A stretch of DNA of 64,000 nt from IMG/VR virus record IMGVR_UViG_3300010224_000005; one strand, given 5' to 3'. Below, in pieces: positions 4,599-61,226 of this stretch. Every line of letters begins with the position of its first letter. Position 1 is the stretch's first letter. Origin of the DNA: a virus. A program made the position numbers and the translations under genes. The notes beneath the pieces were generated by a model. The model had not been told where the DNA came from. It searched no databases and worked only from the letters and a program-made list of their open reading frames with translations.

Positions 4599-4620
4599 AG
4601 CCGAGGGGAGGCGGCTGCCC

Positions 4621-6327
4621 ATGGCCGCCACACCCGACTGGGCCGAATACGCCGCCCGCTCCTTCGAACCCCGACCGAATGCCGACCTGTGGCCCACCCC
4701 CGGCGCCCTGGCCAAAATCGTCGAGCCGGCCACCCTGCAGACACCCGCCCTCGACCTGGTCGACGAAGCCGTCGCCTGGGCGTACAGCACCCCTGACGCC
4801 CGTCTGATCATCTCGATGCCCCCGCAGGAGGGAAAGTCCCAGCGGGTCACCAAGACGGGTTCTCTGTGGGCCCTGCACCGCAACCCAGAGATGCGGATCG
4901 GCATCGTCTCCTACAACAAGCCTCTCGCCGAGTCCTTCGGCCGTGACGTCCGTAACTGGATCACCACCTACAACGGCGACGACGGCGCCACCGACCTCGG
5001 CCTGCGCATCGCCCGCGACAACGGAGCAGCCTCCCGCTGGCAGCTCGCCGGCCACGCCGGCGGCATCATCTGCGTCGGACTCAAGGGCTCCCTCACCGGC
5101 CGCCGCGTCGACGCCCTGGTCATCGACGACCCCTTCGCCGACAAGGAGCAGGCCGACTCCGCCTACTACCGCGACCGGGTGTGGGGCTGGTGGCAGTCCG
5201 TCGGCTCAACGCGCCTGTCCTCCGGCGCCCCGGTCATCGTGATCCTCACCCGCTGGCACGAGGACGACATCGCAGGCCGGCTCAAAGCCGCCGAGGACGG
5301 TCACCGCTGGCGAGTCATCAACATCCCCGCCCTCGCCGATCACAACCCCGAGAAGGGCGAGACCGACCTGCTGGGTCGCCAGCCCGGGGAGTGGCTGAAG
5401 TCCGCTCGAGGCCGAACGGACGAGCAGTGGGAAGCCATCCGTATCCAGGCCGGCACCCGGGTCTTCAACGCCCTCTACCAAGGCCGCCCATCGCCGGACT
5501 CCGGCAACGTGTGGCGCCGCCAGTGGTGGCGCCGCTACAGCGTCCCCCTGTGGTCACAGCACCCCACCGTCCCGGACGGCTACCGGGTCAATGAGTTCGA
5601 CCAAATGGTCATGTCCTGGGACATGACCTTCAAGGACACCAAGTCGTCCGACTTCGTCGTCGGGCAGGTGTGGGCGCGCCGCGGCGCCAACGTCTACCTG
5701 CTGGACCAGATCCGCAAGCGGATGACGTTCACCGAGACCCTGACCGCCTTCCAGGCCCTCGTCAGGCGCTGGCCCCAGGCCACGGCCAAGCTGGTCGAGG
5801 ACAAGGCCAACGGGACCGCGGTCATCAACACCCTCCGGTCGAAGATCCCCGGCATCGTCGAGGTCACCCCGACCGAGAGCAAGTACGCGCGCGCCAATGC
5901 CGTAGCCCCCGTCGTTCAGGCCGGCAACGTCTTCCTCCCCGAGGGGGAGATCGCTCTGTTCGACCCTGAAGAGCTCATCAATGAGGCCGCCGAGTTCCCC
6001 AACGGCGCTCACGACGACCAGGTCGACGCCACCAGCCAGGCCCTGGCCCACATGCTCCTCGACGGCACCGGCGCCCAGGCCTGGATCGAGTACGTCAAAC
6101 GCCAGGCCAAAGCCGCCGCCCAGGCCCGTGCCGAAGGCGGCCAGCCTGACGAACAACAGCCGCCGGCCGGCGAAGCCACAGACCGAGCCGGCGCCCCAGC
6201 GCCCGGTGGCGCCCCGATGCCCCCCGACACCGCAACACCCACCGCAGCCGCCGACGAACCAGATGATCCGGTGGCAGCCCGTCAGCGCGCCCGTAATGCC
6301 GCCTTCCGGCAGCAGCACCGCAGATAG
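4621..6327 (+). CDS. Terminase large subunit
   Basis: Walker-A-like PPQEGKSQ, LVIDDPF Walker B, ILTRWHEDD and a C-terminal nuclease-like DDQVDA. Start taken at ATG M62 of ORF 4438..6327. Confidence 0.9.
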   Translation: MAATPDWAEYAARSFEPRPNADLWPTPGALAKIVEPATLQTPALDLVDEAVAWAYSTPDARLIISMPPQEGKSQRVTKTGSLWALHRNPEMRIGIVSYNKPLAESFGRDVRNWITTYNGDDGATDLGLRIARDNGAASRWQLAGHAGGIICVGLKGSLTGRRVDALVIDDPFADKEQADSAYYRDRVWGWWQSVGSTRLSSGAPVIVILTRWHEDDIAGRLKAAEDGHRWRVINIPALADHNPEKGETDLLGRQPGEWLKSARGRTDEQWEAIRIQAGTRVFNALYQGRPSPDSGNVWRRQWWRRYSVPLWSQHPTVPDGYRVNEFDQMVMSWDMTFKDTKSSDFVVGQVWARRGANVYLLDQIRKRMTFTETLTAFQALVRRWPQATAKLVEDKANGTAVINTLRSKIPGIVEVTPTESKYARANAVAPVVQAGNVFLPEGEIALFDPEELINEAAEFPNGAHDDQVDATSQALAHMLLDGTGAQAWIEYVKRQAKAAAQARAEGGQPDEQQPPAGEATDRAGAPAPGGAPMPPDTATPTAAADEPDDPVAARQRARNAAFRQQHRR

Positions 6328-9300: not shown

Positions 9301-9777
9301 GGCAACTGGAAACCCGGCGACACCAAGGCCGCCCAGCTCCTCCTCGGCCCGAACGCCACCGGCGCCGGCCTGCAGGATCTGCTGAACGACAGCGGCGTCA
9401 CGATCCGTTCAATCGCCGCCAACCGACTCAACGCCCTCGGCCGGCTCCTCGCCGAGGGCGCCGAGCGCGGCGACAGCCCCACCACCATCGCCAGCGCCAT
9501 CGAGGGACTACTCTCCAACCCCTCGCGCGCCGAGATGATCGCCACCACCGAACTGGCCCGGGCGGTCACCAAGGCCAGCCTGTCCACCTACCTCGCCAAC
9601 GGCATTGAAGCCGTGGAGTGGGTCAGCGCGGGCGATGGCCGGGTCTGCAACATCTGCCAGGCCAACCAAGACGCCGGCCCCGTCCGGCCCGGCAACCTTT
9701 TCCCCAACGGCCGGTCCGGTCCACCAGGCCACCCCTGGTGCCGCTGTGCTCTTGCCCCTGTAACGGGAGGTGGCTGA
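6343..9777 (+). CDS. Portal protein fused to a Nudix hydrolase domain, Cys-rich segment and MuF-like (SPP1 gp7 family) head morphogenesis domain
   Basis: N-terminal about 430 aa are SPP1 Gp6-like portal. Perfect Nudix box GGHLEGDERPLTAAVREWSEETGL. CPCCSGGGEHGNGSECLHC Zn-ribbon-like segment. C-terminal MuF signature VCNICQAN...GPPGHPWCRCALAP. Confidence 0.85.
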   Translation: MGLRTRITQLAKVFGNRQPADMQAGETAAGMTPSRPFSPGAPIGPYDGFSRHPRTHDFVTGYNISARPRSHSAVAFDTLRGLIDAYDVAQMCIWHRIDSIRALDWALVPKRGFEGDAADAISLGMQVLAYPDRQNPFPAWLATWLYDILAYDAGTLSRVKNRRGDVIGLRVVDGTTIAPLLDYWGNSPEPPAEAYVQYVNGLPWNWLTRRDLVYVPFRPRSNSPYGYAPLESILLNANTDLRFQAYFLQRFTEGNIPQAIGSSPENWTPDQVQEFQGWWDQFMMGDQAIKSQIRWIPGGSKIEWSNEKDFDDTFSLFLMRKTCAAYHVVPADLGFTETVNRSSGETQADVQHRVGDLPLVSHLQGILTAFLQHDLHLPLEFRFDTGQEKEDRLTLAQAWQIYIDAGMASADEGRKELLGLPVDPRRPVPRFHNTPRLGPVPLLAIQGIAGKIDPVTYGPAEDQMPLPQPFVPAPGVISDAGTTDAKAAATAEDGYQTLVRQVSQQQAANEAAEAAQMSKDGATTAGITAQTGLVGHDLIGSDNDQPQHEDAEKDDGQAAELAKQELATFRRFRQSRRRTGAWRDFEFRHVDPVQAHRLNDSGRLDVRKDSGQIAVAGLAVRAADTGRVLMLQRALTEGDPAGGTWEFPGGHLEGDERPLTAAVREWSEETGLILPYAPETAAAHAFANGPTWTNGIYQGFVYTVDTESMLDLGYREAVTNPDDPDGDQVESLAWWDPAQLPGNPAVRHELQDSMGIVLRLLAPCPCCSGGGEHGNGSECLHCDASGTAIGTTGPVPCEGALAGTADVTVSPEGVYTSTCPCGTPAVYDDLDGWQHADGSMGHDDGTQETVADKMRNVAKAGRPKGEGAEGGPPGRWPGWTMDLKAIAHWASRITSSLRSAVNARRIVDAWLALNPRSSAARKADRLRELNEQARQWLQENSPDLASALDEVVAGIYTDGYLIGVLAAEAAIEAAGAETGIAAGINWGNWKPGDTKAAQLLLGPNATGAGLQDLLNDSGVTIRSIAANRLNALGRLLAEGAERGDSPTTIASAIEGLLSNPSRAEMIATTELARAVTKASLSTYLANGIEAVEWVSAGDGRVCNICQANQDAGPVRPGNLFPNGRSGPPGHPWCRCALAPVTGGG

Positions 9778-17831: not shown

Positions 17832-18287
17832 GTGGGCGGCAGCATAGAAGTGGTCGGAGTGGCCCAGCTGAACATGGCTCTCGAGAAACTGCTGGGCTCC
17901 TTCAACCTCGCCACCCGCACCGCTACCGCGCACGCAGCCCACCTCCTCGAGGCGGAGATCAAGAAGACACTGGCGACGTCCAGCCACCCCCGCGGCACCC
18001 CGACCCCCTCACGCCCAGGGGACCCGCCCTCACTGGTGACTGGCACCCTGCGCCGATCCATCAGCGTCAAGGGCCCCAACCCCTTGGGCCTGGGCCGCTG
18101 GGAGGCGCAGATCGGGCCAACGGCCGTCTATGGGCGCATCCAGGAGCTCGGTGGCGTCACCGGCCGCGGCCACGCAACGACGCTGCCGGCGCGCCCGTTC
18201 GTGCAGCCCTCCTACACCAAGCTCGTCACGACCGGCGCACTGGCCCGCGTCTACCACGAGGCGTGGCGCTCAGCCATCACGCACTGA
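17832..18287 (+). CDS. HK97 gp10-family protein (tail completion/head-tail joining type)
   Basis: Motifs TGTLRRSI, VYGRIQELGG and LPARPFVQPSY match the gp10 family pattern. Confidence 0.65.
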   Translation: MGGSIEVVGVAQLNMALEKLLGSFNLATRTATAHAAHLLEAEIKKTLATSSHPRGTPTPSRPGDPPSLVTGTLRRSISVKGPNPLGLGRWEAQIGPTAVYGRIQELGGVTGRGHATTLPARPFVQPSYTKLVTTGALARVYHEAWRSAITH

Positions 18288-18349
18288 CCTCACGCTCGCC
18301 CCCGCTCGCGCCCCCTTCGGCGCCCAACCTCGCGAAGGGGGTGGGCGCC

Positions 18350-21300
18350 ATGTCCGAGGGCGCTTTCCTGCCGCCCGTCCTGGTCCGCCTCATCGGCGAC
18401 ATGACCCAGCTGCGCGGCACGTTCCGGCAGGCAAGGGCCGAAGCGTCCGGGCTCGAGGGCAGTTTCAAGCGCTCGGGCGCCACCATCGCGGCCGGCTTGG
18501 CCAAGGCTGGCCGATCGGTGTCGCTGGTCGGCGTGGGCGTGGCCGTGGCCAGCACCAAGATGGCCGCGGACTTCCAGTCCGAGACGATGGTCCTGCACAC
18601 CGCCGCCGGTGAGACGGTCAAGGGCCTGGCCACAGTCCGCAAGGGCATCCTCTCCATCTCCGAAGGCACCGGGACGGGGATCCAGAATCTCGTCGACGGC
18701 ATGTACCAGGTCGAGAAGGCGGGGTACCGCGGCGGTGAGGGTCTCCAGGTCCTTAAGGCCGCCGCCCAGGGTGCAAGGGAAGAGAACGCCCAGCTCTCCA
18801 CGGTCACCAACGCGATGACCAGCGTCATGGCGTCGTACCACCTCAAGGCATCCGACTCCGTCCGAGTTATGAACGCGCTCAAGTCGGCCGCGGGCGAGGG
18901 CAAGATGACCATGGAGGAGTTCTCCGGGTCGCTCTCCACCGTCCTCCCGATCGCCAGCGCGAACAAGATCAGCCTGGAGCAGGTGACCGGCGCGCTCGCC
19001 ACCCTCACCCAGCACGGCACCAGCGCCCGCGAGGGCACCCAGGAGCTCGCCTCTACCATCAAGAACCTGGCATCGCCGAACAACGTTGCTACCGCCACGA
19101 TGCAGCGATTTGGCCTGTCAGCGACGGACGTGCAGACCCACTTGGGTAAGCGGGGGCTGACGGGGACGCTCGACCTCCTGTCTGAGACTGTCCTGTCCAA
19201 GATGGGCAAGTCCGGCACGATCCTGCTCAACACGTTCAATACGTCGAAGCAGGCCGCCAAGGATGCGGATCTCATGATCCGCAGCATGCCCAAGTCCATT
19301 CAGGGCCTGGCCCGCTCGTACGACGGCGGCAAGATCAGCCTGGCGGACTGGCGTAAGGAGCTGAAGGGGCTCCCGCCCGAGCAGGCCAACCTGCTGTCGC
19401 AGTACGCGACGTTGCAGAACAAGAGCAAGGGCTTCAACGACGCCCTCAAGCGCGGCGGCCCGGCCGCGACCACTTACACCGACGCCATTCGGAAGATGAC
19501 CGGCGGCGCGATCGGCCTCAACACGACGCTGCAGCTGACCGGCGAGAGCAGCGAGGGGTTCAAGGAGCGGGTCAAGAAGGTCGGGGAGAGCTTCCATAAC
19601 GGCAGCAAGGACGTCGAGGGCTGGAAAGAGACCTCCAAGCTTCTCAACACCCAGCTCGCCCAGACCAAGGCCAAGGCGCAGGTCCTCGCGATTGAGATCG
19701 GCAGCAAGCTCATCCCGGTCGTCTCGGCTGTGATCAGCTTCTTCGCCGAGCACAAGACCGCCGCGACTGCCCTGGCGGCGGTCATCGGCGGAGTCCTCGC
19801 TCTGTCGGTCGTCGCGTACGCCGCGAAACTGACGATGAGCGCGGCCAAGGGCGCCGTCGAGTTCGGGAAACTCGGCGTCTCTGCGGTCAAGGCGGGCGGC
19901 CGCGTCGTCCAGGGCTTCCGCTCGGCGCAGGTGGCCGAGTCCGCCTTCTCCGGGAAGGCCGGCAGCTTCGGCGGAGCGCTGCGCAAGGCTTTCGACGGCA
20001 CGGTCAAGGGCGCCAAGGGCGCCGCGAGCGGTATCCGCAAGGCCGGCGGCGCTGTGAAGGACTTCGCCGTCTCGGTGGGCAAGGCGTCCGCGAGCGCCGG
20101 AAAGGCAGCCTGGTCCGGACTGGTCTCCGGGATCAAGGGCGTCGGCAACGCAGCGAAGTCGGCCGGCGGCGCAGTGAAGACCTTCGCGCTGTCCGTGGGC
20201 CGCGTATCGGCGCAAGCAGGCAAGGCTGCCTGGACCGGCCTGGTCACCGGTCTGAAGAACGTCGGCATGGCGATGAAGACGGCGTCGCTCAACGCGCTGC
20301 AGTTCTTGCGCGCCATGGCGATGTCCGCCCTGTCCGCGGCCCGGGCCGCCATCGCCTACACCGCCCAGAAGGTGGCCCTCGTCGCATCGGCGATCGCGGA
20401 GAAGGCGGCCGCGATCGCCCAGTGGGCGCTGAACGTGGCCATGGACGCCAACCCGATCATGCTCATCGTTCTGGCACTTGCGGCCCTCGTCGGCGGCCTG
20501 ATCTGGGCCTATAACAAGGTCGGTTGGTTCCGCGCGTTCGTCGACGGTGCTTTCAAGGGCATCTCGGCAGTGATCGGCGCGGTGGTCGACTTCGTCAAGT
20601 CCCACTGGCCGCTGCTGCTCGCGATCCTCACCGGCCCCATCGGTATCGCCGTGCTGCTGATCGTGAAGTACTGGAAGAAGATCTCCAGCGGCTTCGAGTC
20701 TGCGTACCGCACCACGATCAATATCGGAAAAACCCTGATCAGCTGGGTCACCGGACTGCCAGGCTGGATCAAGGGCGCCCTGTCGTCACTGCGCCAGAAG
20801 ATCGTCACGACAGCCCTGGACGCCTGGTTCCGCTTCCGGGCAGCCACGATCCAGAAAGCGGGCGAGCTCCTCACCTGGGTGAAGAGCCTCCCCGGCAAGA
20901 TCAAGTCCGGGCTGGGCAGCCTGGGCCAGCTCCTCTACAACTCCGGCCGCGCTCTGCTCTCGGGCTTTATGCACGGCATCCAGTCGATGCTCGGACCCGT
21001 CGTCAACGCCGGCAAGAGCATCATGTCCCACCTAAGCGGCCTCTTCCCGCACTCCCCGGCCAAGTTCGGCCCGTTCTCCGGCAAGGGCTGGACCCTGCAC
21101 TCCGGGCGCGCCCTGATGGACGGCCTTTCCCAGGGCATCCATGCCGGCTCTTCGGGCGCGGTGGCGACGATGCGCGGAGCGGCCCAGGCCACGTCGAACG
21201 CTTTCGCGCACACCCTCGGCATCGCCTCGCCGTCGAAGGTGTTCCGGCAACTGGGCATCTACGTCAATGAGGGCCTGGTCGACGGGCTGACCGGGAGCAC

Positions 21301-22357
21301 GGCCCGGGTGAAGGCCGCCACCCGCAGGATCGAGTCCCTGCTGATCCAGACGTACAACCGTGTGTCCGATCTGCAGGCAGGCAGGGGCCGTAAGGGTCGG
21401 GCGATGCGAGCGTGGGTGGCCTCCCACGAGCGCACGATCAAACGCCTCGAGGCCTACGCGCGCAAGGAGGACAAGGTTCTGCGTGGCCTGGCAGCCAGGC
21501 GCGACTCGGTGGCCACGCAGCTCAAAGCAGCGCAGAAGCACCTCAAGGACCTGCAGAAGTCCTGGTCGGACGAGGTGAAGAACGTCGCCTCCGGGATCAT
21601 GCAGGGCTTCTCCATCGTCACCGACGCCCCGCAGGAAGGCTTCGCACTCACTGCGCAGGACGTGGTCAACCACATGCGCGACCAGATGCAGAAGGCCGTG
21701 CAGTTCGCCGCCCAGCTGAAAGAGCTGAAGAAGAAGGGCCTCAGCTCGGACCTGATCGCTCAGATCGCTGCTGCCGGTGTCGACCAGGGCGGCGCGACGG
21801 CGACCGCGCTGATGGGCGCGACCAAGGGCCAGATCGCTGCGATCAACCAGGCCCAGCAGGTGACAAAGAGCGCGGCAACCAGCGCTGGGAAGACCGTCGC
21901 CAACTCCATGTACGGGGCGGGCATCAAAGCTGCTCAGGGCCTGGTCAAGGGGCTCCAGTCGCAGGAGAAGGCGATTGAGCGGCAGATGACCAGGATCGCC
22001 AAGAAGATGGCCGCCACCATCAAGCACGAACTCAGGATCAAGAGCCCGAGCCAGGTGTTCCAGCAGATCGGCCAGTGGATCCCCAAGGGCCTCGCCAGGG
22101 GCGTCGAGCGTAACGCCCACCACGCCACCGGAGCTGTGCACCGCCTCGCCGGAGCGGTTGTCGGCGCAGGCTCGTTCGCAGGCACGGGCGTCGCGCTGGC
22201 GGGCGCCGGTGGGGGCACAGTCATCCACAACCACCACTACGAGTTCAAGATCGAGGGCAACGTGCGGACGATCGACGGACTCGCCCGCGACATCGAGACC
22301 GCGTTCCTCAAGCGCGGCATGCGGAACCCCAGCACGTACCCCGCCTACAAGCGCTGA
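18350..22357 (+). CDS. Tape measure protein
   Basis: 1335 aa, helical and A/G/K-rich with a central TM-like segment and an internal tandem repeat AGGAVK-FA-SVG--SA-AGKAAW-GLV-G-K. Position after the chaperones. Confidence 0.9.
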   Translation: MSEGAFLPPVLVRLIGDMTQLRGTFRQARAEASGLEGSFKRSGATIAAGLAKAGRSVSLVGVGVAVASTKMAADFQSETMVLHTAAGETVKGLATVRKGILSISEGTGTGIQNLVDGMYQVEKAGYRGGEGLQVLKAAAQGAREENAQLSTVTNAMTSVMASYHLKASDSVRVMNALKSAAGEGKMTMEEFSGSLSTVLPIASANKISLEQVTGALATLTQHGTSAREGTQELASTIKNLASPNNVATATMQRFGLSATDVQTHLGKRGLTGTLDLLSETVLSKMGKSGTILLNTFNTSKQAAKDADLMIRSMPKSIQGLARSYDGGKISLADWRKELKGLPPEQANLLSQYATLQNKSKGFNDALKRGGPAATTYTDAIRKMTGGAIGLNTTLQLTGESSEGFKERVKKVGESFHNGSKDVEGWKETSKLLNTQLAQTKAKAQVLAIEIGSKLIPVVSAVISFFAEHKTAATALAAVIGGVLALSVVAYAAKLTMSAAKGAVEFGKLGVSAVKAGGRVVQGFRSAQVAESAFSGKAGSFGGALRKAFDGTVKGAKGAASGIRKAGGAVKDFAVSVGKASASAGKAAWSGLVSGIKGVGNAAKSAGGAVKTFALSVGRVSAQAGKAAWTGLVTGLKNVGMAMKTASLNALQFLRAMAMSALSAARAAIAYTAQKVALVASAIAEKAAAIAQWALNVAMDANPIMLIVLALAALVGGLIWAYNKVGWFRAFVDGAFKGISAVIGAVVDFVKSHWPLLLAILTGPIGIAVLLIVKYWKKISSGFESAYRTTINIGKTLISWVTGLPGWIKGALSSLRQKIVTTALDAWFRFRAATIQKAGELLTWVKSLPGKIKSGLGSLGQLLYNSGRALLSGFMHGIQSMLGPVVNAGKSIMSHLSGLFPHSPAKFGPFSGKGWTLHSGRALMDGLSQGIHAGSSGAVATMRGAAQATSNAFAHTLGIASPSKVFRQLGIYVNEGLVDGLTGSTARVKAATRRIESLLIQTYNRVSDLQAGRGRKGRAMRAWVASHERTIKRLEAYARKEDKVLRGLAARRDSVATQLKAAQKHLKDLQKSWSDEVKNVASGIMQGFSIVTDAPQEGFALTAQDVVNHMRDQMQKAVQFAAQLKELKKKGLSSDLIAQIAAAGVDQGGATATALMGATKGQIAAINQAQQVTKSAATSAGKTVANSMYGAGIKAAQGLVKGLQSQEKAIERQMTRIAKKMAATIKHELRIKSPSQVFQQIGQWIPKGLARGVERNAHHATGAVHRLAGAVVGAGSFAGTGVALAGAGGGTVIHNHHYEFKIEGNVRTIDGLARDIETAFLKRGMRNPSTYPAYKR

Positions 22358-26991: not shown

Positions 26992-27462
26992 ATGGCATCC
27001 GATGTTCCCGCGGCCCTGCAGCAGTCGCTGCGGCACTTCCGTTACGCCCACCTGCCGCCCGTTCTGCGCGATGTGAGTAAGCCCTTCCACGACCTGGCCC
27101 ACAGCCTGGCGCGGAGCGTTTCAGGCCGAGAACTGACGCGGGCGCTTGACTACCTCTTCGACGCGAAGAACTGGGCCGTCGTCGCCGTCCTCTCCGGCCT
27201 TCCCGACGCCGACGCCACACAGCCGGCGTCGCTGGTGCCTCGAGTCGGAGACGTCGTCCTGGTCGCCGCCGATCCGGCTCTCAACAACGGTGCCGAGCAG
27301 GCGCCCGCGGTCGTCACCCGAGTGTGGTCCGCGACCACGGTCAACGTCCGCGTCCTGTACGACGGGCACGCGGTCACCTGGCATACCTCGCTGAACTACG
27401 TGGACACGCTCGACGGCCTCGCCCCTGACGCCCTCGCGTGGACGTGGCCGGAGGACATGTGA
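26992..27462 (+). CDS. Hypothetical protein, first gene of the lysis cassette
   Basis: AGGAGG RBS and ATG, in frame with ORF 26941..27462. Confidence 0.5.
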   Translation: MASDVPAALQQSLRHFRYAHLPPVLRDVSKPFHDLAHSLARSVSGRELTRALDYLFDAKNWAVVAVLSGLPDADATQPASLVPRVGDVVLVAADPALNNGAEQAPAVVTRVWSATTVNVRVLYDGHAVTWHTSLNYVDTLDGLAPDALAWTWPEDM

Positions 27463-28544
27463 TGAACACCTCCTGCCGCGGCATCGACGTCTCCGCCTAC
27501 CAGAGCCCCCAGGACTGGACGGCCTGGACCAAGCAGGGCGTCGTGTTCGCCTTCGCCAAGGCATCCGAAGGCACCAACACCCGGGACCCGCGCTTCGACG
27601 CGCACATCGCCGGCATCATCAAGGCCGGGCTGCTGCCCGGCGCCTACCACTTCGCGTGGCCCACCCAGTCGGCCGCAGCGGAAGCCGCGAACTACATCGC
27701 CGCCGTCGCCCCCTACGCCCGCAGCACCCCCTTCGTGCACTGGCTCGACCTCGAGCGCTACCCCGACGGCCGCAACTACACCGGCCGCACCAGCGCGCAG
27801 ATCCTCACCTGGGCCGAAGAGTGGCTCACTACGGTGCAGGCCGCGTTCCCCGCCCAGAGAGTCGGCGCCTACACCTCCGGCGACGACATCGCCGCCGGCC
27901 ACGTCCCGGACGGCATCCCGTTGTGGTTCCCGTCCTACCCGGGCGCCAGCGCAGACACCTACGCCGAGGCCCAGGCGGCCGTCCGGCCGAGGCCGTCCGG
28001 AAGGCTGCCGCTGCTGTGGCAGTTCACCTCCACTCCCGCGGACGGCTCCCGCACCGACGAGTCCATCGCCTACCTGTCCGAAGCCGGCCTGCGGGCCTGG
28101 GCCGCGGGCACCCCCCAGGAGGACGTCATGCCGGAAGAGGTCAACCTCGGCATCGCCAAGCCCTACACGCTCGCACCCGGGGCGTGGGACAGCATCGAGT
28201 TCACCAGCGAGTGGCTCGATACCGGCGACGAGCACGCGCCCGGCGGCAGCGTGTTCGCCCGCGGAGCCTGCCGGTTCACCGGCACCGTCAGCCTCCGCGT
28301 CCACGGGCTGCCCGCGGGCGAGACCGTGCAGGTCCGCATGTCCGAATACGCCGGGGACACCCTCGTCCACGACCACCCCATCGCCGAGGTCATCGGCACC
28401 AAGGGGGACGCGTTCGCCGTGGTGCCGCTGGTCAAGCACTGCCCGGCCGGCCACGGCATGCGGGTGAGGCTGCTGAACAACACCAGCCAGCCGGTCACCA
28501 TCACCACCGCGGTGCTCACCGCGCTGATCTGGAAACAGGCCTGA
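27462..28544 (+). CDS. Endolysin, glycoside hydrolase family 25 muramidase with an uncharacterised C-terminal domain
   Basis: GIDVSAYQSPQDW...FAFAKASEGTNTRDPRF...GAYHFAWP is the GH25 signature. TGATG overlap start. Confidence 0.85.
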   Translation: MNTSCRGIDVSAYQSPQDWTAWTKQGVVFAFAKASEGTNTRDPRFDAHIAGIIKAGLLPGAYHFAWPTQSAAAEAANYIAAVAPYARSTPFVHWLDLERYPDGRNYTGRTSAQILTWAEEWLTTVQAAFPAQRVGAYTSGDDIAAGHVPDGIPLWFPSYPGASADTYAEAQAAVRPRPSGRLPLLWQFTSTPADGSRTDESIAYLSEAGLRAWAAGTPQEDVMPEEVNLGIAKPYTLAPGAWDSIEFTSEWLDTGDEHAPGGSVFARGACRFTGTVSLRVHGLPAGETVQVRMSEYAGDTLVHDHPIAEVIGTKGDAFAVVPLVKHCPAGHGMRVRLLNNTSQPVTITTAVLTALIWKQA

Positions 28545-34489: not shown

Positions 34490-35668
34490 ATGGATGAGCC
34501 GATCAAAGAGATCACGCTCCGCAACGGCAAGAAGCGCTACCGGTTCGTCCTCGACGTCGGCCGCCGACCGGACGGCGGCCGACGACAGCTCACCGTCACC
34601 AAGAACACGCTCAAGGAAGCGCGCGCCGAGTACGGCCGGCTCCTGACCGCGAAGAACTCCGGCACGCTGATCGTCCCCAACAAGATCACCGTCGAGCAGT
34701 GGATCGAGGAGTGGCTCAAGCTCAAGGCGGAAGACGTCGAGGTCACCACCCTCAACTCGTACGTCACCACGCTAAAGCCGGCCAGGAAACGGCTCGGGCA
34801 CATCCGCCTCCAGGAGCTCACCGAAGAGGACGTAGTCGCCTGGGTGAAGTGGCTGCTCACCGAAGGGCGCGTGCGCCCCCGGCAGGGGAACAAGGGGCTG
34901 TCGACGACGTCCGCGGACATGGCCCTCGGCCGCCTGAAGGAAGTCCTGAACAGAGCCGTCACGAAGCGCCTGGTCGGCCTGAATGTCGCCGCCGAGGTGT
35001 CCATCCCGAGCAAGGCGCGGCGGGCAGACCGCAAGGCGCGGCCCCGGGTGAAGCCGTGGAACAGCGCGGAGGTACGGGCTTTCGTGGCGGGTATCCGGGA
35101 GGAGCGGCTGTTCGCTGCGTTCCTGCTCAGCCTCATGGGACTGCGGCCCGCGGAAGTCTGCGGGCTGCGCTGGAGCGACATCGACTTCGCGGAGCGCATC
35201 CTCGTGGTCGACAACACCCGAACGATGATCAACAACAACGAGGTCGTCGAGAAGGACACCAAGTCGGCCTCCAGCGACCGCGACCTCCCCCTTCCGACGC
35301 TCTTGTTCGACGCATTGAAGAAGTTCCGGGCTCTCCAGGCCGCGGAGAAGCTTGCGCTCGGCCAGGACTACCTCGAGTCCGGCTACGTCCTGGTCGACGA
35401 GATGGGCCAGCCGCTGAACGTGCGCCTGCTGCGGGTCGAGGCGAAGAAGCTGATGGACAAGCTGGGCATGCGCAAGGTGCGCCTGTACGACGCGCGGGCC
35501 TCGTGTCTGACGTTCCTGGCGAACGAGGGAGTGCCGCGGCACATCCTGGCCCGCTGGGCCGGCCACGGCAATCCGAAGACGACCGAGCGCTTCTACCTGA
35601 AGCCCGACGTCGAGGATCTGCGGGGTGCGGCAGAGAGTTGGGGCGGCCTCGGCGGAGGGCCTTCGTGA
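34490..35668 (+). CDS. int: Tyrosine recombinase (phage integrase family)
   Basis: SAM-like N-terminal domain plus catalytic region GLRPAEVCGLRW, LYDARASCLTFL and ARWAGHGNPKTTERFYL (R..R..H..Y). Confidence 0.9.
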   Translation: MDEPIKEITLRNGKKRYRFVLDVGRRPDGGRRQLTVTKNTLKEARAEYGRLLTAKNSGTLIVPNKITVEQWIEEWLKLKAEDVEVTTLNSYVTTLKPARKRLGHIRLQELTEEDVVAWVKWLLTEGRVRPRQGNKGLSTTSADMALGRLKEVLNRAVTKRLVGLNVAAEVSIPSKARRADRKARPRVKPWNSAEVRAFVAGIREERLFAAFLLSLMGLRPAEVCGLRWSDIDFAERILVVDNTRTMINNNEVVEKDTKSASSDRDLPLPTLLFDALKKFRALQAAEKLALGQDYLESGYVLVDEMGQPLNVRLLRVEAKKLMDKLGMRKVRLYDARASCLTFLANEGVPRHILARWAGHGNPKTTERFYLKPDVEDLRGAAESWGGLGGGPS

Positions 35669-58242: not shown

Positions 58243-58923
58243 ACGCCCGAACCGTCACCGAGTGGCATGATGCAGCCAGGACGGAGCACCGCCCGGCCGG
58301 ATCACCGGACGGTCCACGCAGGCCCGCGCGACCGCCGCGCTCCCGGCTGGGGTCGAACCCCGGGCCTGCACCAACCCCAAGGAGCGTCCACCGCGTGAAC
58401 GAACTCCTCCAGCGGCGCCACACCCAACTCGAGCACACCGCGCCCTACACTGGGCGCCACGGCAAGACACGTACGCCGGAGCCGGACGCGGCCAAGGTCT
58501 CTCGGGACCCGTGTAGGAAACCCAAACCGCCGGCGGCCGCGGGAATCCGAGGGCGGCACGCGACGCCCGAACCGCAAGGCCAAGGGTCACAGACTCCGCG
58601 TGACGGCAGGACGCGCACGCCCAACCGGGCACCCCCGGGTGCCAGTCGGCCAAGGCCCACGGGGCCCGCGTGAACGCCCCTCTTTCGGGAGGGGCGTTCT
58701 GGCATCCTGACCGTGCGGCATCCGGGTGCAAGACCCGGCGCTCACGCCTCGCGCTGCTTGAGAGGTGGCCCGACTGCCCGCGGGAGTCGGAGGACCCCTG
58801 TGCCGCACCCGGCCCCCTGAACATGCATACGCGTTCGCACAGGTGCACCAGCAACCCATCGGCTGAGCCAGGAGTAGCGTTTCTCCTTTGCGCGTTCCGT
58901 AATGGCTCGGCTACGGTGAGCAT

Positions 58924-59063
58924 CGCCCAGGTGCGCAGGCAACGGTTACTTCATTTGGGATGACGAGGTCGCGGGTTCAAATCCCGCCCGGCCAACAGCG
59001 TTGGCCGGTGGCTCAGTTCGGCAGAGCGCGTACGTGCCCGTCGCCGACCTTGATCTCTGGGCA
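58924..59063 (+). ncRNA. Y-RNA-like module 1 with a permuted tRNA-like domain (YrlA-type)
   Basis: 5' box CCCAGGTGCGCAGGC can pair with 3' box GCCGACCTTGATCTCTGGG. Internal T-arm GCGGG-TTCAAAT-CCCGC, capped helix CCGGCCAA-CAGCG-TTGGCCGG and D-arm GCTC-AGTTCGGCA-GAGC. Confidence 0.7.
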
Positions 59064-59082
59064 ACAACTTCAGATTTCTGCA

Positions 59083-59142
59083 CCTCCCGGTGCGCAGGCC
59101 GCGGCTACTTCATTGCATGGAACCCGCCGCAGCCGTCCTTGA
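59083..59142 (+). ncRNA. Y-RNA-like module 2 (short, no tRNA-like domain; YrlB-type)
   Basis: CCTCCCGGTGCGCAGGC...CCGTCCTTGATCTCGGGAGG has the same boxes closing a small GCGG...CCGC hairpin. Confidence 0.6.
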
Positions 59143-59164
59143 TCTCGGGAGGCCCAAGCATCCG

Positions 59165-59327
59165 GGGGCGCCCGGTGCGCAGGCAGGTGGTACTTCTCCT
59201 GCTAAGAGAGAGACCCGGGTTCGAATCCCGGCCGATGCTGCTGAAGATCCCTCGGGGTCTGAGGCTCGGTAGCTCAGCGGCCCAGAGCGCTTCGTCCCAT
59301 CCGCCGACCTTGATCTCGGGCGCCCCA
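59165..59327 (+). ncRNA. Y-RNA-like module 3 with a permuted tRNA-like domain (YrlA-type, longer acceptor-like arm)
   Basis: GGGGCGCCCGGTGCGCAGGC...GCCGACCTTGATCTCGGGCGCCCC. T-arm CCGGG-TTCGAAT-CCCGG and D-arm GCTC-AGCGGCCCA-GAGC. Confidence 0.7.
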
Positions 59328-59364
59328 CTGCTTGCGCTTCCCCTCCACAGCGAGGGGCTTTCCC

Positions 59365-61008
59365 ATGGCTAGGTTCAACCAGCGCGGCACGCGGCCGACA
59401 GCCGTATCCCCGGTCACCACGACCGGCGAGACGGCCCGCACCCACGAGGGCGGCGTCGGCCATCTCCGCGATGCACGCTCCGAGCTCTACCTGCTCGCGG
59501 TGTCGAACATGGTCGGCACCGACACCTTCTACGAGGACGGCAACGGCCGCGACGACCGCTACGAGCGACTCGTGCGCCAGCTCGCTGTCGAGGACCCGGA
59601 GTGGTCCGCGGGCCTCCTCGGCTGGCTGCGTGGCGAGGGCAACATGCGCACCGCGGCGATCGTCGGCGCCGCGGAGTTTGTCAAGGCACGGCTGGACGCT
59701 GGGCCGGAGTCACTGCGGAACTACGGCACCACTGGTCTGAACCGGAAGGTCGTCGCCTCCGTCCTCCAGCGACCCGACGAGCCCGGCGAGTTGCTGGCCT
59801 ACTGGACGTCGCGGTACGGGCGCCGGATTCCGAAGCCGGTGAAGCGCGGCATCGAGGACGCGCTCGGAGAGCTGTACACCGAACGCTCGCTGCTGAAGTA
59901 CGACACCGACAGCAAGGGCTTCCGCTTCGGCGACGTCATCGAACTCGTCCACCCGGCCCCGTCCGCGCTCTGGCAGGGCGACCTTTTCGAGCACGCCATC
60001 GACCGCCGCCACAACCGGGATAAGCCGATCCCCGAGTCGCTGCAGCTCCTGCACACCCGCGCGGAGATCGCGAAGTGGGACGTCGAGAAGCGGCGCGCGC
60101 TCCTGGCGCGGCCGGATGCCGCGGACTTCCTGAAGCACGCCGGCATGACGTGGGAGGCACTGGCCGGCTGGCTACAGGGCCCGATGGACAAGACCGCATG
60201 GGAAGCGGCCATCCCGTCCATGGGCTACATGGCCCTCCTCAGGAACCTCCGCAACTTCGACCAGGCTGGTGTCTCGGACGAGGTCGCCGAGACCGTGGCC
60301 CGGAAGCTCGCGGACCCGGAGCAGGTCGCGCGGTCCCGTCAGCTGCCGATGCGGTTCTACTCGGCGTACCGCGCGGCCCCGTCGCTGCGGTGGGGACATG
60401 CGCTGGAGAAGGCGCTCACGCTGTCCCTGGACAACATCCCGGCGCTGCCGGGCCGGACGCTGGTTCTGGTGGACACGTCGTCGTCGATGGAGGACACGTT
60501 CTCGAAGGACGGCACGCTCATGCGGTGGGATGCCGCAGCGCTGTTCGGCATCGCGCTCGGGCAGCGGTGCGCGCAGGCGGACGTGGTGTCGTTCTCGTCG
60601 AGCCGCTACTACATGAGTGACCCGCCCGGCGCGAAGACAAAGGCGTTCCCGCTGCAGCGCGGCGAGTCCGTACTGCGCGCGGTCGGCAGGTGGAAGGACG
60701 GCGGCTGGTTCCTCGGTGGCGGCACAGACACGGCACTCGCCCTCCGCCAGGAATTCAAGGCGCATGACCGGGTCGTCATCGTCACGGACGAGCAGGCCGG
60801 CCACGACCTCACCGAAGTAGACCGGTCCATCCCGCAGACGACCCCCATGTACACCTGGAACCTCGCCGGATACGAAGCCGGACACGCCCCCTCCGGCAAA
60901 AGCCAGCGACACACCTTCGGAGGACTCACCGACGCGGCCTTCCGCACGATCCCGCTCCTCGAAGCAGGCCAGCACACATCGTGGCCCTGGACCACCCCCG
61001 TAGCCTGA
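59365..61008 (+). CDS. rsr: Ro60-related protein (TROVE domain plus vWA domain)
   Basis: N-terminal TROVE-like region (HEGGVGHLRDARSELYLLAVSNMVGTDTFYEDG...EWSAGLLGWLRGEGNMRTAAIVGAAEF). C-terminal vWA with MIDAS LVLVDTSSSMED. Immediately downstream of the Y-RNA-like modules. Confidence 0.85.
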   Translation: MARFNQRGTRPTAVSPVTTTGETARTHEGGVGHLRDARSELYLLAVSNMVGTDTFYEDGNGRDDRYERLVRQLAVEDPEWSAGLLGWLRGEGNMRTAAIVGAAEFVKARLDAGPESLRNYGTTGLNRKVVASVLQRPDEPGELLAYWTSRYGRRIPKPVKRGIEDALGELYTERSLLKYDTDSKGFRFGDVIELVHPAPSALWQGDLFEHAIDRRHNRDKPIPESLQLLHTRAEIAKWDVEKRRALLARPDAADFLKHAGMTWEALAGWLQGPMDKTAWEAAIPSMGYMALLRNLRNFDQAGVSDEVAETVARKLADPEQVARSRQLPMRFYSAYRAAPSLRWGHALEKALTLSLDNIPALPGRTLVLVDTSSSMEDTFSKDGTLMRWDAAALFGIALGQRCAQADVVSFSSSRYYMSDPPGAKTKAFPLQRGESVLRAVGRWKDGGWFLGGGTDTALALRQEFKAHDRVVIVTDEQAGHDLTEVDRSIPQTTPMYTWNLAGYEAGHAPSGKSQRHTFGGLTDAAFRTIPLLEAGQHTSWPWTTPVA

Positions 61009-61013
61009 CCAGG

Positions 61014-61226
61014 ATGACCGACGCTGACACAGCACGGCGCCTCGAGACGGCGATGCTACGCATCGGCGCCCGCATGCAACGCTCCCTCAAGCGGACGCTC
61101 ACGATCCCGCCGGAGCCGTCGCCTCTGCCCTCGCCAGACGACCCGCTGCACGACCTGCTCCGAGCACAGCACCGCCTCATCGCACACCTACGTGGCCGGA
61201 GCTGCAGGTATGGCACTTGCGGCTGA
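61014..61226 (+). CDS. Small hypothetical protein downstream of the Ro60 gene
   Basis: ATG in frame with ORF 60981..61226. Confidence 0.35.
   Translation: MTDADTARRLETAMLRIGARMQRSLKRTLTIPPEPSPLPSPDDPLHDLLRAQHRLIAHLRGRSCRYGTCG

What the first reader, a model, noticed from the sequence alone, without database searches (positions are those of the whole stretch)
58924..61008. Phage-borne Ro60 (TROVE-vWA) gene preceded by three tandem Y-RNA-like modules, two of which carry a circularly permuted tRNA-like domain
Seen in sequence:
- A 547-aa CDS has a TROVE-like N-terminus and a vWA MIDAS motif (DTSSSM).
- In the 440 nt just upstream, three units are each closed by the same 5' box (CC[C/S]RGGTGCGCAGGC) and 3' box (CCG[A/T]CCTTGATCTC[T/G]GG). 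These can pair into a long bulged helix.
- Units 1 and 3 contain, in this order, a T-arm (GCGGG-TTCAAAT-CCCGC; CCGGG-TTCGAAT-CCCGG), a loop-capped acceptor-like helix and a D-arm (GCTC-AGTTCGGCA-GAGC; GCTC-AGCGGCCCA-GAGC). That is a tRNA opened at the anticodon and closed at the acceptor end.

Established knowledge: bacterial Rsr binds YrlA/YrlB Y RNAs encoded next to rsr. YrlA mimics tRNA with this topology, and the CUUGA-type strand is part of the Ro-binding helix.

Inference: this temperate phage carries a complete Ro-Y RNA ribonucleoprotein kit. The three-module array (long, short, long) and its context in a Streptomyces-type phage that also encodes an RNA ligase look unusual. They suggest manipulation of host RNA decay or tRNA surveillance, or a decoy function against tRNA-targeting defences.
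Basis: partly seen in the sequence, partly recalled or inferred. Interest (0 to 1): 0.8.

Follow-up and report, generated by a model that had tools for sequence, protein, structure and literature searches.

The report
Phage Ro60 gene with three Y RNAs
A temperate actinobacterial phage carries a Ro60-type RNA-binding protein gene preceded by three small Y RNA genes (two tRNA-like, one short hairpin), a cassette already known from bacteria and other phages and laid out exactly as in Streptomyces-family chromosomes.

Summary
CDS 59365-61008 is a Ro60/TROVE-vWA protein: Pfam TROVE E=5.5e-15, and a family profile hits solved Ro60 rings from Thermus phage phiLo, human, Xenopus and Deinococcus. The 440 nt upstream hold exactly three Y-RNA modules on the same strand (58924-59063, 59083-59152, 59168-59323). 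A covariance model built only from bacterial-genome homologues, with no window or viral sequence, finds all three (109, 96 and 60 bits) and nothing else in 64 kb. The shared structure is strongly supported by covariation (97% paired, 23 of 33 pairs compensatory).

The long-short-long array is not unusual. The same position-specific A/B/C layout lies upstream of the Ro gene in 24-30 of 80 genome loci (mostly Streptomycetaceae, some other actinomycetes) and in many viral contigs, which carry up to 7 modules. The RNA ligase shows no conserved linkage: 0 shared contigs. The tRNA-like cores appear to keep an anticodon-arm mimic, so the break lies inside the anticodon stem, not the loop. That explains why ARAGORN and GenBank annotators call false tRNAs here.

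Phage Ro60 with upstream Y RNAs is published (Chen 2014; Hu 2025). Verdict: a real, well-formed new member of a known kind, of modest interest.

The parts
58912..58917 (+). Putative -10 promoter hexamer TACGGT. It places the transcription start at about 58923-58925, the first base of unit 1.
   Evidence: A TAnnGT hexamer lies exactly 12 nt before the start of module A in the window and in every A-first homologous locus listed: TACAGT, TATCGT, TAAGGT, TAGAGT, TAAAGT, TATGGT. The sigma-70 consensus scan found nothing, as expected for high-GC actinobacteria. This is an inference; no transcript data exist.
58924..59063 (+). Unit 1 (module A): a long, tRNA-like Y RNA of YrlA type.
- 5' box 58930-58940
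- inner stem 58938-58945 with 59038-59045
- hairpin with 7-nt loop UUUGGGA 58951-58963
- variable loop 58966-58970
- T arm 58971-58987
- acceptor-like hairpin 58988-59008
- D arm 59011-59027
- C59029-G58965 and G59030-C58964 complete the anticodon-arm mimic
- 3' box 59048-59057
   Evidence: Rfam YrlA RF02553 matches over the full model at 44.1 bits, E=2e-8, below the gathering score of 69. Model R1 gives 129 bits. The leave-out model R2 gives 108.8 bits.
59083..59152 (+). Unit 2 (module B): a short hairpin Y RNA of YrlB type.
- closing helix CCUCCCGG / CUCGGGAGG
- 5' box 59089-59099
- inner stem GGC.CGCGG / CCGC.GCC
- apical hairpin
- 3' box 59137-59146
   Evidence: It was not in any training set, yet scores 61.9 bits with R1 and 59.6 bits with R2. 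Of 30 homologues, 27 fold independently into the same closing-helix, inner-stem and apical-hairpin architecture although their inner-stem sequences differ; the other 3 keep the closing helix. The closing helix covaries CG<->GC.
59156..59333 (+). Unit 3 (module C): a long, tRNA-like Y RNA. The covariance-model core is 59168-59323.
- extended basal helix AAGCA 59156-59160 / UGCUU 59329-59333, plus GGGGCGCCCG 59165-59174 / CGGGCGCCCC 59317-59326
- 5' box 59174-59184
- anticodon-arm mimic 59194-59210 with loop CUGCUAA 59199-59205
- T arm 59215-59231
- enlarged acceptor-like arm 59232-59269
- D arm 59272-59288
- 3' box 59308-59317
   Evidence: R1 gives 113.1 bits and R2 95.8 bits. Rfam YrlA matches the core only partially, at 20 bits. 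Inverted repeat I2 was found. The basal helix covaries with CAGCA/UGCUG in homologues (alignment A1). ARAGORN miscalls 59167-59241 as tRNA-Ser(gct).
59340..59357 (+). Conserved hairpin CCCCUC (59340-59345) / GAGGGG (59352-59357), followed by CUUUCCC and the ATG. GAGGGG is the likely ribosome-binding site, 7 nt before the start codon. The hairpin may occlude it, or may act as an attenuator or processing stop.
   Evidence: It is present in nearly all 14 loci of alignment A1, often followed by a U-rich run. It is almost invariant, so covariation cannot test it. Its function is inferred.
59365..61008 (+). Ro60/Rsr-like protein, 547 aa. It has a TROVE (HEAT-repeat ring) region and a C-terminal vWA domain with MIDAS residues D370, S372, S374, T454 and D475.
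   Evidence: - Pfam TROVE: 55.9 bits against a cut-off of 23.
- phrog_850 'RNA-binding protein': E=3e-48.
- Single sequence against phiLo phage Ro60 (9kop): E=8e-23 over residues 24-536.
- Family profile A4: 9kop E=9e-56, human RO60 E=2e-15, Xenopus Ro60 E=1e-14, D. radiodurans Rsr E=1e-11.
- The MIDAS residues are invariant in 28 homologues.
- The start at ATG 59365, rather than TTG 59332, is supported by the conserved M-x-R-F-N N-terminus.

Best explanation
This is a phage-borne copy of the actinobacterial rsr (Ro60) locus. It holds one Ro60 ring protein gene and, in its leader, three Y RNA genes.

**Proposed sequence of events**
1. *Transcription (inferred).* A promoter just upstream (-10 TACGGT, 58912-58917) starts transcription at the first base of unit 1 and reads through units 1-3 into the Ro gene.
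2. *Processing (inferred).* Host RNases release three stable RNAs of about 135, 65 and 150-178 nt. This is how Mycobacterium smegmatis YrlA and YrlB are cut from a single precursor.
3. *Ro binding (structure shown by conservation and covariation; binding inferred by homology).* Each RNA closes into a bulged helix made by the invariant 5' box (GGUGCGCAGGC, a relative of the metazoan GGUCCGA and bacterial GNCGAA motifs) and the 3' box (CCUUGAUCUC). This helix is the Ro60-binding module.
4. *Effector modules (inferred).* Units 1 and 3 carry a tRNA-shaped module beyond that helix, and unit 2 carries a plain hairpin. The modules probably recruit host partners to the Ro ring, most likely polynucleotide phosphorylase, as in the Deinococcus and Salmonella RYPER complex and in Thermus phage phiLo. 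The phage could thereby redirect or damp host structured-RNA decay during infection or lysogeny.

The cassette was probably captured from a host chromosome, because the A/B/C module order and the position-specific closing helices match those of cellular loci.

The confidence of 0.85 applies to the identity (a Ro60 gene with three Y RNA genes). The PNPase-directed mechanism on its own deserves about 0.5.
For: **Protein**
- TROVE is above Pfam's cut-off.
- The family profile hits four solved Ro60 structures.
- The MIDAS residues are invariant.

**RNA**
- Rfam YrlA matches unit 1 at E=2e-8.
- On 49 non-redundant long modules, the RNAalifold structure has 33 pairs, 23 with compensatory changes.
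- 97.0% of cells are paired, against 35-50% when partners are slid. The covariation score is 0.513 against at most 0.136, and 0 of 500 shuffles reach it.
- The leave-out model R2 finds only the three units.

**Layout**
- Modules lie upstream of the Ro gene, on the same strand, in 80 of 80 genome loci and 44 of 48 viral or phage loci.
- The A, B and C closing helices are position-specific.
- A cellular example, S. massasporeus, is flanked by PhoX, a GntR regulator and a PLP enzyme, not by phage genes.

**Promoter**
- TAnnGT lies at -12 in all A-first loci listed.

**Phage context**
-.

**Literature**
- YrlA-related RNAs lie next to Ro60 in 254 bacteria and 22 phages. M. smegmatis YrlA and YrlB lie upstream of rsr and are processed from one precursor (PMC4201824).
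- phiLo Ro60 binds two upstream Y-like RNAs and, with them, host PNPase, whose activity it attenuates (PMC12135203).
Against: - There are no expression, processing or binding data for this phage or any close relative.
- Both long units are below Rfam's YrlA gathering score (44.1 and 20 bits against 69).
- The protein fails NCBIfam's Rsr equivalog model (17 bits against 900), so this is a divergent subfamily. Its partners need not be those of Deinococcus or Salmonella.
- The box motif here is CGCA, not the canonical CGAA.
- Single-sequence folding z-scores are weak.
- The PNPase link is carried over from distant systems. In phiLo the effect is inhibition; in Deinococcus it is specialisation of the enzyme. 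The direction of any effect here is therefore unknown.
Confidence: 0.85

Rival explanations
1. The three units are mainly a cis-acting leader of the Ro mRNA. Ro protein would bind its own 5' UTR and, together with the hairpin over the ribosome-binding site, autoregulate translation or mRNA stability. On this view the units are not trans-acting Y RNAs.
For: The units lie between the predicted promoter and the start codon on the coding strand. A conserved CCCCUC/GAGGGG hairpin covers the likely ribosome-binding site 7 nt before the ATG. No terminator-like site separates the RNAs from the gene.
Against: In M. smegmatis, S. Typhimurium and D. radiodurans the homologous RNAs accumulate as discrete Ro-bound species (PMC4201824). 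A tRNA-like core conserved with covariation in about 150 modules is not needed for a simple operator. In large phages, modules lie far upstream of the Ro gene and are interspersed with true tRNA genes. The two roles are not mutually exclusive.
Confidence: 0.12
2. The tRNA-like units act as decoys or baits for tRNA-directed host defences (anticodon nucleases, tRNA-cleaving toxins) or for tRNA-modifying enzymes. Ro would serve as a stabilising cap. PNPase tethering would not be their role.
For: Of 146 parsed long modules, 81 (including both in the window) can form a complete anticodon-arm mimic with a CU-NNN-AA type 7-nt loop. The central triplet varies freely among homologous modules: GCU, CAU, GAU, GUU, CUU. 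In large phages the Ro gene and its modules sit inside tRNA gene arrays. YrlA RNAs are known substrates of tRNA-modifying enzymes, and M. smegmatis YrlA is cut by RNase P (PMC4201824).
Against: The same modules occur in 80 of 80 related genome loci, the one examined (L020) having an ordinary chromosomal neighbourhood, so the feature is not phage-specific. No defence or counter-defence gene was identified next to the locus. Triplet counts are inflated by shared ancestry. There is no experimental support.
Confidence: 0.08
3. The units are genuine or decayed phage tRNA genes, as ARAGORN and GenBank annotators read them. Their proximity to the Ro gene would then be incidental.
For: ARAGORN calls tRNA-Ser(gct) at 59167-59241. 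It makes equivalent calls in about 20 of 50 related loci. GenBank lists tRNA-Arg just upstream of the Ro-like gene in Gordonia phage VanLee and Streptomyces phage GiJojo.
Against: Rfam's tRNA model scores only 22.5 and 18.6 bits, below its gathering score of 29. Those alignments have no D arm and two mismatched acceptor pairs. The called 'tRNA' consists of the 5' box, the anticodon-arm mimic and the T arm of a larger covarying structure, whose real D arm lies downstream of a loop-closed acceptor hairpin. Neither RNA end can form an aminoacylatable acceptor stem.
Confidence: 0.02
4. The boxes are DNA-level repeats, for example binding sites for a phage regulator or recombination sites, and not RNA structure.
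For: There are three exact direct repeats of 10-11 bp within 400 bp.
Against: Compensatory base changes keep pairing between distant segments in 23 of 33 pairs across 49 sequences. This is a signature of RNA, not of DNA sites. All units are on one strand.
Confidence: 0.01

Closest known systems
Mycobacterium smegmatis rsr locus (YrlA-YrlB-rsr; Chen et al. 2014, PMC4201824)
   Same: It is also actinobacterial. Its Y RNAs are encoded directly upstream of the Ro gene on the same strand and are processed from one precursor. YrlA has the order T arm, loop-closed acceptor-like stem, D arm, plus a hairpin 5' of the T arm and a YUAY motif (UUAC in unit 1, GUAC in unit 3). YrlB is a shorter hairpin RNA that may carry a T arm. 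Some homologues of unit 2 also carry an inserted T-arm-like hairpin.
   Different: This locus has three modules, two of them tRNA-like. The box is GGUGCGCAGGC (CGCA) rather than GNCGAA. The locus is on a temperate phage. Both long units score below the Rfam YrlA gathering threshold.
Thermus phage phiLo Ro60 with Yrl1 and Yrl2 (Hu et al. 2025, PMC12135203; PDB 9KOP, 9L5Y)
   Same: It is a phage-encoded Ro60 with Y-like RNAs in the upstream non-coding region. It is the best solved-structure match to this protein (E=8e-23 for the single sequence, 9e-56 for the family profile). It provides an experimentally shown mechanism: Ro binds the RNAs, and the complex engages and attenuates host PNPase.
   Different: The published description mentions two RNAs and no tRNA-like domain (0 occurrences of 'tRNA-like'). 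The host is a thermophile, and the phage is a 178-kb genome. The tblastn alignment shows about 26% protein identity.
Salmonella Typhimurium rsr-yrlBA-rtcBA and Deinococcus radiodurans Rsr/Yrn1/Yrn2 (RYPER)
   Same: A Ro60 ring, at least two Y RNAs encoded next to the gene, one of them tRNA-like. The Y RNA tethers Ro to PNPase.
   Different: In Salmonella the locus is an operon with the RtcB ligase and RtcA cyclase. Here the only RNA ligase lies 6.5 kb away, belongs to another family (PF17720 / phrog_14301) and is not co-inherited with Ro. The NCBIfam Rsr equivalog model is not met.
'Ro-like RNA binding protein' genes of isolated actinophages (Streptomyces GiJojo, BRock, Alone3; Gordonia VanLee; Arthrobacter Atuin)
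   Same: They are homologous proteins, 41-50% identical, found in 93 phage records. R1 finds Y modules upstream in VanLee and GiJojo.
   Different: Most are large phages whose Ro gene sits in a tRNA gene array. In VanLee and GiJojo, the two records examined, the Y RNA is not annotated and its 5' half is annotated as tRNA-Arg. The window phage is temperate and carries no true tRNA gene.
Metazoan Ro60 with Y RNAs
   Same: Homologous protein. The Y RNA ends pair into a conserved bulged helix whose 5' strand (GGUCCGA) resembles GGUGCGC/A here (PMC4201824).
   Different: No Rfam family other than YrlA and tRNA gave a meaningful hit at E<=10, so the metazoan Y RNA model does not match. Metazoan Y RNAs have no tRNA-like module and are separate RNA polymerase III genes.

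Membership tests
Ro60 / TROVE-vWA proteins | TROVE domain detectable by profile | tested here: met
   Pfam PF05731 scores 55.9 bits against a cut-off of 23, E=5.5e-15, although only residues 276-335 align. phrog_850 matches at E=3e-48 over residues 20-542.
Ro60 / TROVE-vWA proteins | Homology to solved Ro60 rings across the HEAT-repeat region and the vWA domain | tested here: met
   The single sequence matches 9kop at E=8e-23, aligning residues 24-213 and 259-536. Family profile A4 matches 9kop at 9e-56, human 9nen at 2e-15, Xenopus 1yvp at 1e-14 and Deinococcus 2nvo at 1e-11. The ring fold itself was not modelled.
Ro60 / TROVE-vWA proteins | vWA domain with MIDAS motif DxSxS...T...D | tested here: met
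   D370, S372, S374, T454 and D475 are invariant in 28 homologues. DTSSSM aligns with DVSGSM of 9kop. Pfam VWA_2 alone is below its cut-off, at 19.4 bits against 27.
Bacterial Rsr (NCBIfam NF041674 equivalog) | Score above the curated equivalog cut-off | tested here: not met
   17.1 bits against a cut-off of 900. This is a divergent actinobacterial and phage subfamily, so it should not be filed as an Rsr equivalog.
YrlA (Rfam RF02553) | Score at or above the Rfam gathering threshold | tested here: not met
   Unit 1 scores 44.1 bits over the full model (E=2e-8). Unit 3 scores 20 bits over the core only. The gathering score is 69.
YrlA (Rfam RF02553) | The order T arm, loop-closed acceptor-like stem, D arm, enclosed by stems that lead to the Ro-binding helix, with tRNA-type invariant bases | tested here: met
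   The T loop is UUCRAAU, U8, A14, GG in the D loop and A21 are present, and G15 can pair with C48. All helices covary.
YrlA (Rfam RF02553) | Encoded within 4 kb of a Ro60 gene on the same strand (criterion of Chen et al. 2014) | tested here: met
   The units end 302, 213 and 42 nt before the start codon, on the same strand.
YrlA (Rfam RF02553) | GNCGAAN0-1G motif near the 5' end | tested here: inconclusive
   All three units have GGUGCGCAGG, with CGCA. Many homologues have GGUGCGAAGG, with CGAA, at the same column. It is a variant of the motif, not an exact match.
YrlA (Rfam RF02553) | Bound by Ro60; carries tRNA-type modifications; substrate of tRNA enzymes | not testable with these tools
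   This needs RIP, modification mapping and RNase P assays.
YrlB-type short Y RNA | [quoted passage not shown] | tested here: met
   Unit 2 and 27 of its 30 homologues fold alike. Both covariance models match it through the shared stems. No curated model exists for this class.
tRNA | Standard cloverleaf with an acceptor stem formed by the 5' and 3' ends, scoring above the Rfam threshold | tested here: not met
   RF00005 scores 22.5 and 18.6 bits, below its gathering score of 29. The D arm is missing and two acceptor pairs are mismatched. The ARAGORN call at 59167-59241 is an artefact of the 5' half of unit 3.
Metazoan Y RNA (Rfam) | Match to the curated model | tested here: not met
   The model is absent from the hits at E<=10 over 58700-59500.

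The most novel reading that the evidence does not exclude
The long Y RNAs of this clade are complete tRNA cloverleaf mimics, and the Ro-binding stem branches out from inside the 5' strand of the anticodon stem. They display an intact anticodon-arm mimic: 5 stacked pairs and a CU-NNN-AA loop. The central triplet drifts freely between homologous modules.

If this arm is what a partner recognises, phage copies could act as Ro-capped baits or decoys for anticodon-directed nucleases or tRNA-modifying enzymes. Alternatively, the 39-43 strand could switch between local and long-range pairing. Either would be a new mode of tRNA mimicry, and in a phage a new anti-defence device.
Probability: 0.08. Interest if true: 0.75.

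Novelty: new member of a known kind. Interest (0 to 1): 0.3.

Why it matters
It adds a clean, temperate-phage example to the Ro60/Y RNA systems and corrects a systematic annotation error. The 'tRNA' called just upstream of Ro-like genes in actinophages is the 5' half of a Y RNA.

It also shows that Streptomyces-family bacteria and their phages share a fixed two- or three-module Y RNA array with its own promoter. This gives a large, covarying data set (about 180 non-identical modules). That data set could be used to build a better model than Rfam's current YrlA, and to design experiments on what phage Ro60 does to host RNA decay.

It does not reveal a new kind of system.

Tried and rejected
- **Rfam at gathering thresholds:** nothing found in the whole window. 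Only the permissive search showed YrlA.
- **Energy-only folding:** the three units gave weak z-scores, and for unit 3 a wrong fold that pairs the D arm with the acceptor arm. This evidence was set aside in favour of comparative evidence.
- **Near-identity DNA search against isolated phages:** it found only the tRNA-like core in Gordonia phage VanLee.
- **Exact-protein look-up:** not on record.
- **Review papers:** two reviews (PMC10870794, PMC6542706) and the supplement of Chen 2014 are not held. I therefore could not check whether multi-YrlA arrays in Streptomyces are already tabulated.
- **MAFFT alignment of the short modules:** it misaligned the inner stem, so RNAalifold saw only the closing helix. 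Independent folds were used instead.
- **Flawed scripts:** the first script for the hairpin 5' of the T arm failed to parse 78 modules and relied on minimum-free-energy folds; a direct pattern test replaced it. A D-arm parser bug was fixed.
- **Fourth, degenerate module:** the partial repeat at 58835-58855 was examined and rejected.
- **Ro-RNA ligase functional kit:** rejected for lack of co-occurrence.
- **Protein structure prediction:** not run. Profile matches to four solved Ro60 structures made it unnecessary.


Full report
**1. Observation**

- The CDS runs from ATG 59365 to the stop at 61006-61008, 547 aa. The mechanical ORF list starts it at TTG 59332, but 28 homologues share the N-terminus M-x-R-F-N, which favours 59365.
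- The 5' box GGTGCGCAGGC occurs exactly three times on the + strand within 250 nt. The only other exact copy in 64 kb is on the other strand.
- The 3' box CCTTGATCTC occurs exactly three times and nowhere else.

**2. The protein**

- Pfam TROVE is well above its cut-off (55.9 against 23 bits), although only a 60-residue stretch aligns. VWA_2 is just below its cut-off.
- PHROGs places the protein in phrog_850 'RNA-binding protein' (E=3e-48, residues 20-542).
- Against solved structures, the single sequence matches the Ro60 of Thermus phage phiLo (9KOP, 9L5Y) over nearly its whole length (E=8e-23).
- A profile of 28 homologues also reaches human RO60, Xenopus Ro60 and Deinococcus Rsr (E=2e-15, 1e-14, 1e-11).
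- The MIDAS residues D370, S372, S374, T454 and D475 are invariant.
- The curated NCBIfam Rsr equivalog is not met (17 against 900 bits).

The protein is therefore a Ro60 homologue of a divergent actinobacterial and phage subfamily.

**3. The RNAs are real**

- Rfam's gathering search found nothing. The permissive search matched the full YrlA model to unit 1 (44.1 bits, E=2e-8) and the tRNA-like core of unit 3 (20 bits). It gave sub-threshold tRNA hits and no meaningful hit to any other family.
- I collected 80 genome loci (mostly Streptomyces, Kitasatospora and Streptacidiphilus, with Catenulispora, Actinocrispum, Sciscionella and others; 57-75% protein identity) and 46 IMG/VR viral contigs (up to 82%).
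- An alignment of 49 non-redundant long modules, including units 1 and 3, gives a consensus of 33 pairs, 23 with compensatory changes.
- With controls, 97.0% of cells pair, against 35-50% when partners are slid by 1-3 columns. The covariation score is 0.513 against at most 0.136. No shuffle out of 500 reaches any measure.
- To avoid circularity I built a second model, R2, from 26 genome-contig modules only. It finds units 1, 3 and 2 at 108.8, 95.8 and 59.6 bits, and nothing else in the window below E=0.17.
- A filter-free scan found no fourth unit.
- Unit 2 and 27 of its 30 homologues fold independently into the same closing helix, inner stem and apical hairpin, although the inner-stem sequences differ.

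**4. The array is ordinary for this clade**

- Model R1 finds modules upstream of the Ro gene, on the same strand, in all 80 genome loci: 48 have two and 30 have three.
- The layouts are short-long in 35, long-short-long in 24, and long-long in 12.
- It finds modules in 44 of 48 viral or phage loci, with 1 to 7 per locus. These are lower bounds, because some short modules fall below the threshold.
- The closing helices are position-specific: CCAGG/CUCUGG for the distal long module, CCUCCCGG/CUCGGGAGG for the short one, and GYGCCCGG/CUCGGGCRC for the proximal long one. The window's units 1, 2 and 3 carry exactly these.
- One cellular locus, S. massasporeus, is flanked by PhoX, a GntR regulator and a PLP-dependent enzyme, which is not a prophage context.

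The phage cassette is thus homologous, module for module, to cellular rsr loci. It was most likely captured from a host.

**5. Anatomy**

Each unit has four parts:

- a closing helix that covaries;
- the invariant box region, where G10-C186, C13-G183 and G14-U/C182 can pair around unpaired bases;
- an inner stem of seven pairs, all with compensatory changes;
- the invariant YUAC-UUC, followed by the effector part.

In units 1 and 3 the effector part contains a hairpin, a 4-5-nt variable loop, the T arm, a loop-closed acceptor-like hairpin, U8-N9, the D arm, N26 and a linker back to the inner stem.

Chen et al. called the hairpin 5' of the T arm 'V' and modelled it as a variable arm. In this clade the picture differs:

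- 74 of 183 non-identical modules have at least 4 pairs (mostly 5) closing a 7-nt YU-NNN-RN loop, usually CU-NNN-AA. Composition-matched shuffles give 3.0 +/- 1.8.
- Among 146 modules that could be parsed, the strand after the D arm pairs with the strand before the variable loop far more than when partners are swapped (3.62 against 1.82 +/- 0.09 contiguous pairs).
- 61 modules form the full 5-bp long-range stem. This is the 'opened in the anticodon loop' picture.
- 81 modules fit a composite arm. Pairs 27:43 and 28:42 come from the post-D strand. Pairs 39-41 come from the incoming 5' strand and close the 7-nt loop. Swapping post-D strands gives 44.3 +/- 3.2, with a maximum of 54. Position 28:42 covaries among C-G, U-A and G-C.
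- Both long units of the window are of the composite type. In unit 1, C42 cannot pair with the invariant U of the local strand but does pair with G28. This favours the composite model over a simple 5-bp local hairpin.

This reading is inferred from sequence. It needs structure probing.

It also explains the false tRNA calls:

- ARAGORN's tRNA-Ser(gct) at 59167-59241;
- similar calls in about 20 of 50 related loci;
- GenBank's tRNA-Arg immediately upstream of the Ro-like genes of phages VanLee and GiJojo.

**6. Expression signals (inferred)**

- A TAnnGT hexamer lies exactly 12 nt before the distal module in the window (TACGGT, 58912-58917) and in all A-first loci listed. Arrays that start with the short module have TACAGT about 24 nt upstream.
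- Unit 3's basal helix extends to about 15 pairs (AAGCA/UGCUU plus GGGGCGCCCG/CGGGCGCCCC) and covaries with homologues. It may be a processing site.
- A nearly invariant CCCCUC/GAGGGG hairpin covers the likely ribosome-binding site 7 nt before the ATG.

**7. Context**

- The window is a temperate siphovirus-type genome in virion order: large terminase 4438-6327, portal fusion 6343-9777, tape measure 18263-22357, endolysin 27438-28544 and tyrosine integrase 34490-35668.
- ORF 52097-52891 is an RNA ligase homologue (PF17720 at 38 bits; phrog_14301 at E=4e-45).
- None of the 44 viral contigs holding a ligase relative is among the 46 holding a Ro relative. The pairing is therefore specific to this phage and is not a conserved kit.
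- The terminase is at most 57% identical to that of any isolated phage, and the nearest are Arthrobacter phages. The host is a high-GC actinobacterium, probably related to Streptomyces, but this is unproven.
- Several related 75-90 kb viral contigs carry the Ro locus near one contig end.

**8. Mechanism and rivals**

The best-supported reading is a Ro60/Y RNA ribonucleoprotein kit. One promoter drives a precursor that is processed into three Ro-binding RNAs, whose distal modules recruit host factors. The closest experimental precedents are:

- M. smegmatis, where YrlA and YrlB are cut from a single precursor;
- the Deinococcus and Salmonella Ro-Y RNA-PNPase machine;
- phage phiLo, where Ro60 and its two upstream RNAs bind and attenuate host PNPase.

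What is shown here is homology, conserved and covarying structure, conserved layout and phage context. What is inferred is transcription, processing, binding, the partner and the effect.

The rivals rank as follows:

- A purely cis-acting leader and a decoy for tRNA-targeting defences remain possible but lack support.
- The true-tRNA reading fails on the Rfam tRNA score and on covariation.
- The DNA-repeat reading fails on covariation alone.

**9. Novelty**

- Phage Ro60 genes have been known since mycobacteriophage genomics.
- YrlA-like RNAs next to Ro60 were reported in 22 phages in 2014.
- A phage Ro60 with two upstream Y-like RNAs was characterised structurally and biochemically in 2025.
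- 'Ro-like RNA binding protein' is a routine actinophage annotation (93 records).

The finding is therefore a new member of a known kind. The points that may be new, as far as the held literature shows, are:

- the fixed A/B/C array shared by cellular actinomycete genomes and phages;
- the composite anticodon-arm mimic;
- the systematic misannotation as tRNA.

I could not read the two main reviews or the 2014 supplement, so priority for these details is uncertain.

Noticed in passing
L001 2703-2840 (Gordonia phage VanLee) and L002 2765-2909 (Streptomyces phage GiJojo); window 59167-59241: GenBank's tRNA-Arg(tct) and tRNA-Arg(cct) just upstream of the 'Ro-like RNA binding protein' genes lie inside Y-RNA modules found by model R1. 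ARAGORN makes such calls in about 20 of 50 related loci. These appear to be annotation errors: each is the 5' half of a Y RNA.
   Followed up: yes
L002, L099, L103, L107, L116, L118, L121, L125 (viral loci): In large phages the Ro gene and its Y modules sit inside arrays of genuine tRNA genes, with up to 21 tRNAs in 7.6 kb in L107. In several, Y modules are interspersed between tRNAs. L112 has seven modules and L118 and L125 have six. This suggests co-transcription and co-processing with tRNAs.
   Followed up: partly
window 59340-59357: A nearly invariant hairpin CCCCUC/GAGGGG, often followed by a U-rich run, covers the likely ribosome-binding site 7 nt before the Ro start codon. It occurs in both cellular and viral loci. 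It may be a translational occluder, an attenuator or a 5' stabiliser.
   Followed up: partly
L004 ~2714-2810, L005 ~2732-2833, L087 ~2705-2805, L023 ~2734-2834: Some homologues of the short unit 2 carry an inserted T-arm-like hairpin, for example GGGUGGGUUCGAUCCCCAC. This recalls the possible T arm reported in M. smegmatis YrlB.
   Followed up: no
window 58243-58923: About 680 nt upstream of unit 1 has no ORF with the codon-position GC bias of the surrounding genes and no Rfam hit. A 21-nt stretch at 58835-58855 is 81% identical to the start of unit 1, but neither covariance model detects a module there.
   Followed up: partly
window 6343-9777: A 1144-aa ORF combines a portal protein (residues 59-520), a NUDIX/MutT hydrolase segment (613-742) and a MuF-like minor head or head-morphogenesis domain (about 1005-1141) in one reading frame.
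   Followed up: no
window 52097-52891: An RNA ligase homologue (PF17720 RLIG1-type; phrog_14301). Its relatives occur on 44 viral contigs, none of which carries a Ro relative. The last 70 or so residues of the 264-aa ORF lie outside the ligase profile.
   Followed up: partly
Streptomyces genome loci, about 35-50 nt upstream of the first module (e.g. L020 2658-2670): A conserved AATTCGCTCGC-type motif precedes the TAnnGT hexamer in many chromosomal loci, both A-first and B-first. The window lacks it. It may be a -35 element or an operator for host-specific regulation of rsr.
   Followed up: no
window 62833-63402 (- strand) and 61014-61226 (+): An endonuclease homologue (phrog_16880 / phrog_3312) lies downstream on the opposite strand. 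A small ORF starts 6 nt after the Ro stop codon, so the Ro gene may be co-transcribed with it.
   Followed up: no
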